Of a DNA stretch of 64,000 nucleotides, positions 51,478 through 52,056 are shown piece after piece; the first letter of the stretch is position 1; the number at the start of each line of letters is the position of its first letter. Source of the stretch: Escherichia coli (GTDB lineage Bacteria > Pseudomonadota > Gammaproteobacteria > Enterobacterales > Enterobacteriaceae); the NCBI RefSeq assembly GCF_003334355.1, contig NZ_QOWP01000004.1; one strand, 5' to 3'. The position numbers were made by a program.

Positions 51478-52056
51478 CTATACTTAAGAGATGCCAGGCG
51501 GACTTAACGACTGGCGGCAACAACAGAGTAACGGTTGCGAGGAAAGATGATGAAAACCGCAAAAGAGTACAGCGATACCGCAAAACGTGAGGTCAGCGTC
51601 GATGTCGATGCCCTGCTGGCGGCGATCAATGAAATTAGCGAAAGCGAAGTTCATCGCAGCCAGAACGATTCTGAACACGTTAGCGTCGATGGACGTGAAT
51701 ATCATACATGGCGTGAATTGGCGGATGCCTTCGAACTGGATATTCATGACTTCAGCGTCTCTGAAGTGAATCGTTGAATGCACAATAAAAAAATCCCGAC
51801 CCTGAGGGGGTCGGGATGAAACTTGCTTAAGCAAGAAGCACTTAAAAAATTCGTTACACCAGGAAATCTGATGTGTTCATCACCTTATCCGCAATTTTTT
51901 TCGCTGACAAGAAAATATTCGCGATATGAATGATTAACGCTACTTATGAATAGAAATGTGACGTGCGTCACCCCTTGGTGGTTCTGGCGTCAACGGGATC
52001 GCTCCCGAAAAAATCATCTTTGATTATTTGTGCTGTTTTGAGAATCATCCTGGTAA

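What the first reader, a model, noticed from the sequence alone, without database searches (positions are those of the whole stretch)
51791..51877. DsrA small RNA present in canonical context
The reverse complement of 51791-51877 matches the remembered 87-nt DsrA sequence, including the rpoS-pairing 5' region and the terminator hairpin (CCCGACCC…GGGTCGGG). It sits between yodD and yedP, downstream of rcsA and dsrB. This is known biology and is listed for completeness.
Basis: partly seen in the sequence, partly recalled or inferred. Interest (0 to 1): 0.2.

Follow-up and report, generated by a model that had tools for sequence, protein, structure and literature searches.

The report
Ordinary E. 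coli DsrA small RNA
This is the well-known E. coli regulatory small RNA gene dsrA, base-for-base identical to the K-12 reference and in its usual place between yodD and yedP, so it is correct but ordinary.

Summary
The observation and the interpretation both hold. Rfam's DsrA model (RF00014) matches window 51877..51791 on the minus strand. The 91 nt that K-12 MG1655 annotates as dsrA (b1954), plus 45 nt upstream of them, are 100% identical to window 51787-51922.

The RNA folds into the three expected stem-loops (MFE -31.9 kcal/mol, z = -5.7). The last is a 10-bp GC-rich hairpin followed by a T run, which is an intrinsic terminator.

The gene order is rcsA(+), dsrB(-), yodD(+), dsrA(-), yedP(+), dgcQ(-), as in K-12.

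Duplex calculations recover both published target interactions:
- DsrA nt 10-32 pairs with rpoS leader -119..-97 (21 bp).
- DsrA nt 31-43 pairs with hns +7..+19 (13 contiguous bp).

The sequence is present in 5339 of 5426 complete E. coli genomes.

The only differences from K-12 lie upstream of -45, and none are in the gene or core promoter. Nothing here is new. It is already-known biology, correctly identified, and of low interest.

The parts
51787..51877 (-). dsrA gene (DsrA small RNA). The transcript starts at 51877. The 87-nt form ends at 51791 and the 91-nt K-12 annotation ends at 51787.
   Evidence: Rfam RF00014 at 102.5 bits, E = 1.5e-18, full model. 100% identical to K-12 b1954. MFE -31.9 kcal/mol, z = -5.68, 0 of 200 shuffles as stable.
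51856..51874 (-). Stem-loop 1 (DsrA nt 4-22, AUUUC pentaloop). It is unwound when DsrA pairs with rpoS.
   Evidence: Predicted in the MFE and centroid structures and in the Rfam consensus structure. The NMR structure of this same sequence is described in PMC5766208.
51846..51868 (-). rpoS-pairing region (DsrA nt 10-32).
   Evidence: Duplex with K-12 rpoS leader -119..-97: 21 pairs, dG -26.4 kcal/mol, and 4 of 1000 shuffles as good. This matches the published site (PMC5766208).
51844..51855 (-). Single-stranded A/U-rich linker (nt 23-34, AACGAAUUUUUU). It contains the reported main Hfq-binding site, nt 28-32.
   Evidence: The sequence is identical to K-12. The linker and Hfq site are as described in PMC5766208. 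Hfq binding was not tested here.
51835..51847 (-). hns-pairing region (DsrA nt 31-43).
   Evidence: 13 contiguous complementary bases with hns mRNA +7..+19. The whole-segment duplex has dG -23.1 kcal/mol, and 4 of 1000 shuffles are as good.
51818..51843 (-). Stem-loop 2 (about nt 35-60), the conformationally flexible middle hairpin.
   Evidence: Predicted fold and Rfam consensus. Alternative folds are described in PMC5766208.
51787..51817 (-). Stem-loop 3 and U tract, the Rho-independent terminator of dsrA.
   Evidence: The terminator scan finds stem 51817..51793 with 10 pairs, 7 of them G-C, loop of 5, then TTTTTTATTG. It is also present in the fold.
51882..51910 (-). Probable sigma-70 core promoter of dsrA: -35 TTGTCA (51910-51905), 17-nt spacer, -10 TAAGGT (51887-51882).
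   Evidence: Read directly from the sequence and identical to K-12. Assigning these hexamers as the dsrA promoter rests on my recollection of Repoila & Gottesman 2001/2003, which are not held in the library. The consensus scan did not call it, because the -10 matches TATAAT at only 3 of 6 positions.
51550..51777 (+). yodD, the convergent neighbour. Its stop codon lies 10 nt from the dsrA 3' end.
   Evidence: RefSeq annotation of the 100%-identical record, the K-12 annotation and the ORF list.
52075..52890 (+). yedP, the divergent neighbour. A 197-bp intergenic region separates it from dsrA +1.
50532..51155 (+). rcsA, the gene after which dsrA ('downstream region of rcsA') is named.
51199..51387 (-). 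dsrB.

Best explanation
Window 51787-51877 (minus strand) is the Escherichia coli dsrA gene, which encodes the Hfq-dependent trans-acting small RNA DsrA. It is transcribed from its own weak-(-10) sigma-70 promoter, which the literature reports as more active at low temperature, and it ends at its own intrinsic terminator (stem-loop 3 plus the U tract). The 5' part (nt 10-32, stem-loop 1 plus linker) pairs with the rpoS mRNA leader at -119..-97. This opens the inhibitory leader hairpin, frees the ribosome-binding site and raises RpoS synthesis. The middle part (nt 31-43) pairs with hns mRNA just after the start codon and reduces H-NS synthesis, which indirectly de-represses H-NS-silenced genes such as the neighbouring rcsA. 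Shown here: sequence identity to the K-12 gene, family membership, structure, terminator, synteny and complementarity to both targets. Taken from the literature and inferred for this strain: expression, temperature control, Hfq dependence and the regulatory outcomes.
For: Full-length Rfam RF00014 hit at 102.5 bits against a gathering score of 60, E = 1.5e-18. The window is 100% identical to curated K-12 dsrA (b1954) from -45 to +91, with 0 differences in the 127 nt from -36 to +91 against 10 in the other 161 nt of the intergenic region (Fisher p = 0.003). Three stem-loops are predicted, z = -5.68. An intrinsic terminator is present. The gene order rcsA-dsrB-yodD-dsrA-yedP-dgcQ is canonical. 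Pairing with rpoS -119..-97 (21 bp) and hns +7..+19 (13 bp) is each matched by only 4 of 1000 shuffles, and both sites agree with published ones (PMC5766208; PMC4965754). The sequence is present in 5339 of 5426 complete E. coli genomes, at 99% identity or more in 4972.
Against: Nothing substantive. The simple promoter scan did not call a promoter, which is expected for a -10 hexamer with 3 of 6 matches. PGAP-annotated RefSeq records, including the 100%-identical strain PSS-12, carry no ncRNA feature here. That is an annotation habit, not evidence of absence. Expression in this particular strain was not and cannot be tested here. The rpoS and hns targets used were K-12 sequences, because those loci lie outside the window.
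Confidence: 0.97

Rival explanations
1. The stretch is a decayed or non-functional relic of dsrA (a pseudogene) in this strain.
For: None found. The only weak points are that PGAP annotates no feature here and that the consensus promoter scan is negative.
Against: There is not one difference from the functional K-12 gene between -45 and +91. All structural elements and both target-pairing regions are intact.
Confidence: 0.01
2. The GC-rich hairpin at 51793-51817 serves mainly, or additionally, as the transcription terminator of the convergent yodD gene, whose stop codon is 10 nt away, so the element would be a bidirectional terminator rather than only the end of an sRNA.
For: yodD ends at 51777 and the hairpin begins at 51793. 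A symmetric hairpin can form on both strands, and it is flanked by an A run on the plus strand.
Against: On the plus strand the hairpin is followed by GAAACTTGC, not a U tract, and the scan lists no plus-strand terminator there. This reading would also not account for the other 60 nt, which match the DsrA model and its targets. At most it is an added role, not an alternative identity.
Confidence: 0.1
3. The match is a chance resemblance to the DsrA model.
For: None.
Against: E = 1.5e-18 over the full model. The sequence is 100% identical to the reference gene at the syntenic position.
Confidence: 0

Closest known systems
DsrA RNA of Escherichia coli K-12 (gene dsrA, b1954; Rfam RF00014)
   Same: All 91 nt of the RNA and the 45 nt upstream are identical. 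It has the same three stem-loops, terminator, rpoS- and hns-pairing regions, neighbours and orientation.
   Different: Only sequence further upstream differs: 10 substitutions between -46 and -197, including a flipped 2-nt centre of a 14-nt palindrome at -81..-94 (substituted bases at -87/-88). No functional difference is known or shown.
RprA and ArcZ, the other Hfq-dependent sRNAs that activate rpoS translation
   Same: According to the literature they use the same mechanism, pairing with the rpoS leader to open the inhibitory hairpin (PMC3937726 abstract).
   Different: They are unrelated in sequence, lie at different loci and respond to different inducing signals. Neither is in this window.

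Membership tests
DsrA RNA (Rfam RF00014) | The covariance-model score reaches the curated gathering threshold over the full model. | tested here: met
   102.5 bits against 60, model positions 1-85 of 85, E = 1.5e-18.
DsrA RNA (Rfam RF00014) | Three stem-loops, with SL1 at nt 4-22 carrying an AUUUC pentaloop. | tested here: met
   MFE and centroid folds show SL1, SL2 and SL3, z = -5.68. They agree with the Rfam consensus structure and the NMR description (PMC5766208).
DsrA RNA (Rfam RF00014) | Rho-independent terminator at the 3' end. | tested here: met
   10-bp stem with 7 G-C pairs, loop of 5, followed by a T run.
DsrA RNA (Rfam RF00014) | Complementarity of nt 10-32 to the rpoS leader at about -119..-97. 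| tested here: met
   21 pairs, dG -26.4 kcal/mol, and 4 of 1000 shuffles as good, at exactly that site of the K-12 rpoS leader.
DsrA RNA (Rfam RF00014) | Complementarity of the linker/SL2 region to the hns mRNA start region. | tested here: met
   13 contiguous pairs between DsrA nt 31-43 and hns +7..+19.
DsrA RNA (Rfam RF00014) | Conserved genomic position downstream of rcsA, between yodD and yedP. | tested here: met
   Annotated neighbours in strain PSS-12 and K-12 and ORFs in the window.
DsrA RNA (Rfam RF00014) | Hfq binding and Hfq-dependent action. | not testable with these tools
   The A/U-rich linker reported as the Hfq site is present and identical to K-12. Binding itself needs an experiment.
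DsrA RNA (Rfam RF00014) | Transcription from its own promoter, raised at low temperature. | not testable with these tools
   The core promoter sequence is identical to K-12. Temperature control is reported in the literature (PMC4965754). Expression in this strain was not measured.

The most novel reading that the evidence does not exclude
The least ordinary reading still open concerns the strain-specific changes upstream of the conserved core. These are the C/G substitution at -46, next to the -35 hexamer, and the flipped centre of the palindrome GTGACG-CA-CGTCAC at -81..-94. They might alter LeuO/H-NS-dependent or temperature-dependent control of dsrA, or of the divergent yedP, relative to K-12.
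Probability: 0.04. Interest if true: 0.15.

Novelty: already known. Interest (0 to 1): 0.05.

Why it matters
It matters only as a correct annotation. DsrA links low temperature to the RpoS general stress response and to relief of H-NS silencing, so a complete annotation of this region should carry it. Automated PGAP annotation of otherwise identical E. coli genomes leaves it out. There is no new biology here.

Tried and rejected
1. Unrestricted RNAduplex of full-length DsrA against 280 nt of rpoS leader or 180 nt of hns. It gave long loop-ridden duplexes that shuffled sequences nearly matched (21 and 27 of 500), so it was uninformative. I replaced it with segment-restricted duplexes and a search for contiguous complementary runs.

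2. The consensus promoter scan of 51400-52300 found no sigma-70 site. I do not take this as evidence against a promoter, because the hexamers I recall as the dsrA promoter (TTGTCA / TAAGGT) fall below the scan's requirement of 4 of 6 matches per hexamer.

3. I tried to read Repoila & Gottesman 2003 (PMC262114) to confirm the promoter hexamers, but it is not held. The hexamer assignment therefore rests on my own knowledge plus sequence identity to K-12.

4. I considered scanning other species' genomes for DsrA homologues to obtain covariation. I did not run it, because the Rfam model already encodes that covariation and the answer was not in doubt.

5. The pseudogene, chance-match and yodD-terminator-only readings were considered and rejected. 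The reasons are given under the rival explanations.

Full report
**1. Observation**

The minus strand of window 51791-51877 reads AACACAUCAGAUUUCCUGGUGUAACGAAUUUUUUAAGUGCUUCUUGCUUAAGCAAGUUUCAUCCCGACCCCCUCAGGGUCGGGAUUU. A cmscan of the whole window against all 4227 Rfam families places RF00014 (DsrA) on exactly 51877..51791 (-). The match covers model positions 1-85 of 85 at 102.5 bits against a gathering score of 60, E = 1.5e-18, and is not truncated. The coordinates are exact and the match is far beyond chance.

**2. Identity with the reference gene**

E. coli K-12 MG1655 (NC_000913.3) carries the curated feature 'ncRNA dsrA, b1954, small regulatory RNA DsrA' at 2025223-2025313 on the minus strand, between yodD and yedP.

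An alignment of window 51760-52080 (-) with the K-12 stretch shows every base identical from the yodD end through the whole RNA and up to position -45. Ten substitutions lie between -46 and -197. The count is 0 differences in the 127 nt from -36 to +91, against 10 in the remaining 161 nt of the intergenic region (Fisher p = 0.003).

The K-12 feature is 91 nt and runs through the whole U tract, which corresponds to window 51787-51877. The difference only reflects uncertainty about the termination point.

**3. Anatomy**

As RNA, the 91-mer folds into three hairpins with MFE -31.9 kcal/mol. Shuffles average -16.2 ± 2.8, giving z = -5.68, and 0 of 200 fold as well.
- SL1 spans nt 4-22 and has an AUUUC loop.
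- SL2 lies in the middle.
- SL3 is a 10-bp stem with 7 G-C pairs and a 5-nt loop, followed by a T run. The terminator scan reports it at 51817..51793.

This agrees with the consensus structure line of the Rfam model and with the NMR-based description of DsrA in PMC5766208: SL1 at nt 4-22, single-stranded linker at nt 23-34, a flexible SL2, then SL3.

Upstream of +1 (51877) the sequence reads TTGTCA (51910-51905), a 17-nt spacer, then TAAGGT (51887-51882). I recall these as the dsrA -35 and -10 hexamers from Repoila & Gottesman, but I could not read that paper. The simple consensus scan does not call them, because the -10 matches TATAAT at only 3 of 6 positions. What is shown is that this stretch is identical to K-12.

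**4. Context**

| Gene | Coordinates | Strand |
|---|---|---|
| rcsA | 50532-51155 | + |
| dsrB | 51199-51387 | - |
| yodD | 51550-51777 | + |
| dsrA | 51787-51877 | - |
| yedP | 52075-52890 | + |
| dgcQ | 52887-54581 | - |

These come from the ORFs and from the annotation of a 100%-identical record, strain PSS-12. The order and orientation are the same as in K-12.

The 3-kb neighbourhood is found in 5366 of 5426 complete E. coli genomes. The 91-nt gene is found in 5339 of them, at 99% identity or more in 4972.

The whole window is collinear with K-12 from at least 1,972,500 (the start of the stretch I fetched) to 2,037,488, at 96.6-99.6% identity. It is therefore an E. coli chromosome segment.

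**5. Mechanism**

To test function from sequence rather than memory, I took the rpoS leader and the hns start region from K-12.
- DsrA nt 1-34 against rpoS -250..+30 gives its best duplex between DsrA nt 10-32 and rpoS -119..-97. It has 21 pairs and dG -26.4 kcal/mol. Shuffles average -16.3 ± 2.6, and 4 of 1000 are as good. This is the site used in the NMR study, which paired DsrA nt 1-32 with rpoS -119..-95 in a 22-bp duplex and saw SL1 unwound (PMC5766208).
- DsrA nt 31-43 is perfectly complementary to hns +7..+19 over 13 contiguous pairs. The whole-segment duplex has dG -23.1 kcal/mol, and 4 of 1000 shuffles are as good. This fits the report that DsrA blocks H-NS synthesis by pairing at the hns translation start (PMC4965754).

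The literature also supplies the following:
- DsrA rises at low temperature through more transcription and slower decay.
- Pairing with rpoS protects that mRNA from RNase E and counters premature Rho-dependent termination (PMC5766208).

The best explanation is therefore the textbook one. DsrA is an Hfq-dependent trans-acting sRNA that activates rpoS translation and represses hns.

Shown here: identity, structure, terminator, synteny and complementarity. Inferred for this strain: expression, temperature control, Hfq dependence and the regulatory outcomes.

**6. Rivals**

- A pseudogene is excluded as far as sequence can exclude it, because there is no difference from the functional K-12 gene between -45 and +91.
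- A chance match is excluded (E = 1.5e-18, syntenic position).
- The SL3 hairpin could also act on the convergent yodD, whose stop codon is 10 nt away. However, the plus strand has no U tract after the stem and the scan lists no plus-strand terminator there. At most this is an added role.

**7. Comparison with known families, and novelty**

This is a member of RF00014, and in fact the same allele as the type gene. Every sequence-testable defining feature was met. Hfq binding and expression cannot be tested with these tools. Novelty is 'already known' and interest is low.

**8. What did not work**

- The unrestricted duplex calculation was uninformative.
- The primary promoter paper is not in the library.
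- I did not run the expensive cross-species scans, because the answer was not in doubt.

Noticed in passing
window 51958-51971 (81-94 nt upstream of dsrA +1): A 14-nt perfect palindrome reads GTGACG-CA-CGTCAC on the minus strand here and GTGACG-TG-CGTCAC in K-12, so the 2-nt centre is flipped to its reverse complement. This could be two SNPs or a hairpin-templated micro-inversion. The terminator scan flags it as a weak hairpin. Its function is unknown.
   Followed up: partly
window 51923 (-46 of dsrA): A C (window) versus G (K-12) substitution lies 13 nt upstream of the -35 hexamer. It is the nearest difference to the otherwise invariant dsrA gene and promoter.
   Followed up: partly
window 510-587 (+): A full-length Rfam hit to C0465 RNA (RF00116) scores 111.6 bits, E = 1.7e-20. 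It lies in the tar-cheW intergenic region on the strand opposite those genes, and it is not a feature in the K-12 RefSeq table.
   Followed up: no
window 60280-60369 (+): An Rfam hit to RseX (RF01401) scores 97.7 bits and lies upstream of yedS as in K-12. It has a 3-nt and a 1-nt deletion relative to the model consensus, just before and inside the terminator hairpin.
   Followed up: no
window 60651-61754 (+): An intact 367-aa ORF lies where K-12 has the yedS pseudogene (a porin-like gene). The stretch 61210-61740 has no megablast match to K-12. yedS looks intact in this strain.
   Followed up: partly
window about 6265-6272: The IS1H element that K-12 MG1655 carries upstream of flhDC (K-12 1978503-1979270) is absent here, and the flanks join directly.
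   Followed up: partly
window 29383-30333: The central part of fliC has no megablast match to K-12, which is the expected hypervariable flagellin (H-antigen) domain. This strain therefore has a different H type from K-12.
   Followed up: no
window 37733-37755: About 628 bp of K-12 (2010540-2011168, containing yedL) are missing here. The two alignment blocks overlap by about 23 bp, which suggests a short repeat at the junction. yedK (37036-37707) is followed directly by the yedN region, where an intact 267-aa ORF lies at 38114-38917 (-).
   Followed up: partly
window 54684-54792: The dgcQ-yodC intergenic region is about 67 bp longer than in K-12. The extra sequence looks like an additional REP-type repeat ('gcatgataagacgcga...' occurs twice).
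   Followed up: no
window 18814-19113 (-): Three tRNA genes correspond to the K-12 leuZ-cysT-glyW cluster.
   Followed up: no
whole window, compared with the K-12 annotation: K-12 annotates further sRNAs in the collinear region: MotR, AsflhD, AzuR, 3'ETS-leuZ, SdsN and FliX. None gave an Rfam hit at gathering threshold. I did not check whether this reflects missing Rfam families or sequence differences.
   Followed up: no
other genomes (not the window): H40, NZ_CP117971.1 strain B-1109: In this strain the dsrA match covers only nt 22-91 and there are two places in the record, which suggests a disrupted or rearranged dsrA. In addition, 87 of 5426 complete genomes show no dsrA match, and 2 matches lie on plasmids.
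   Followed up: no
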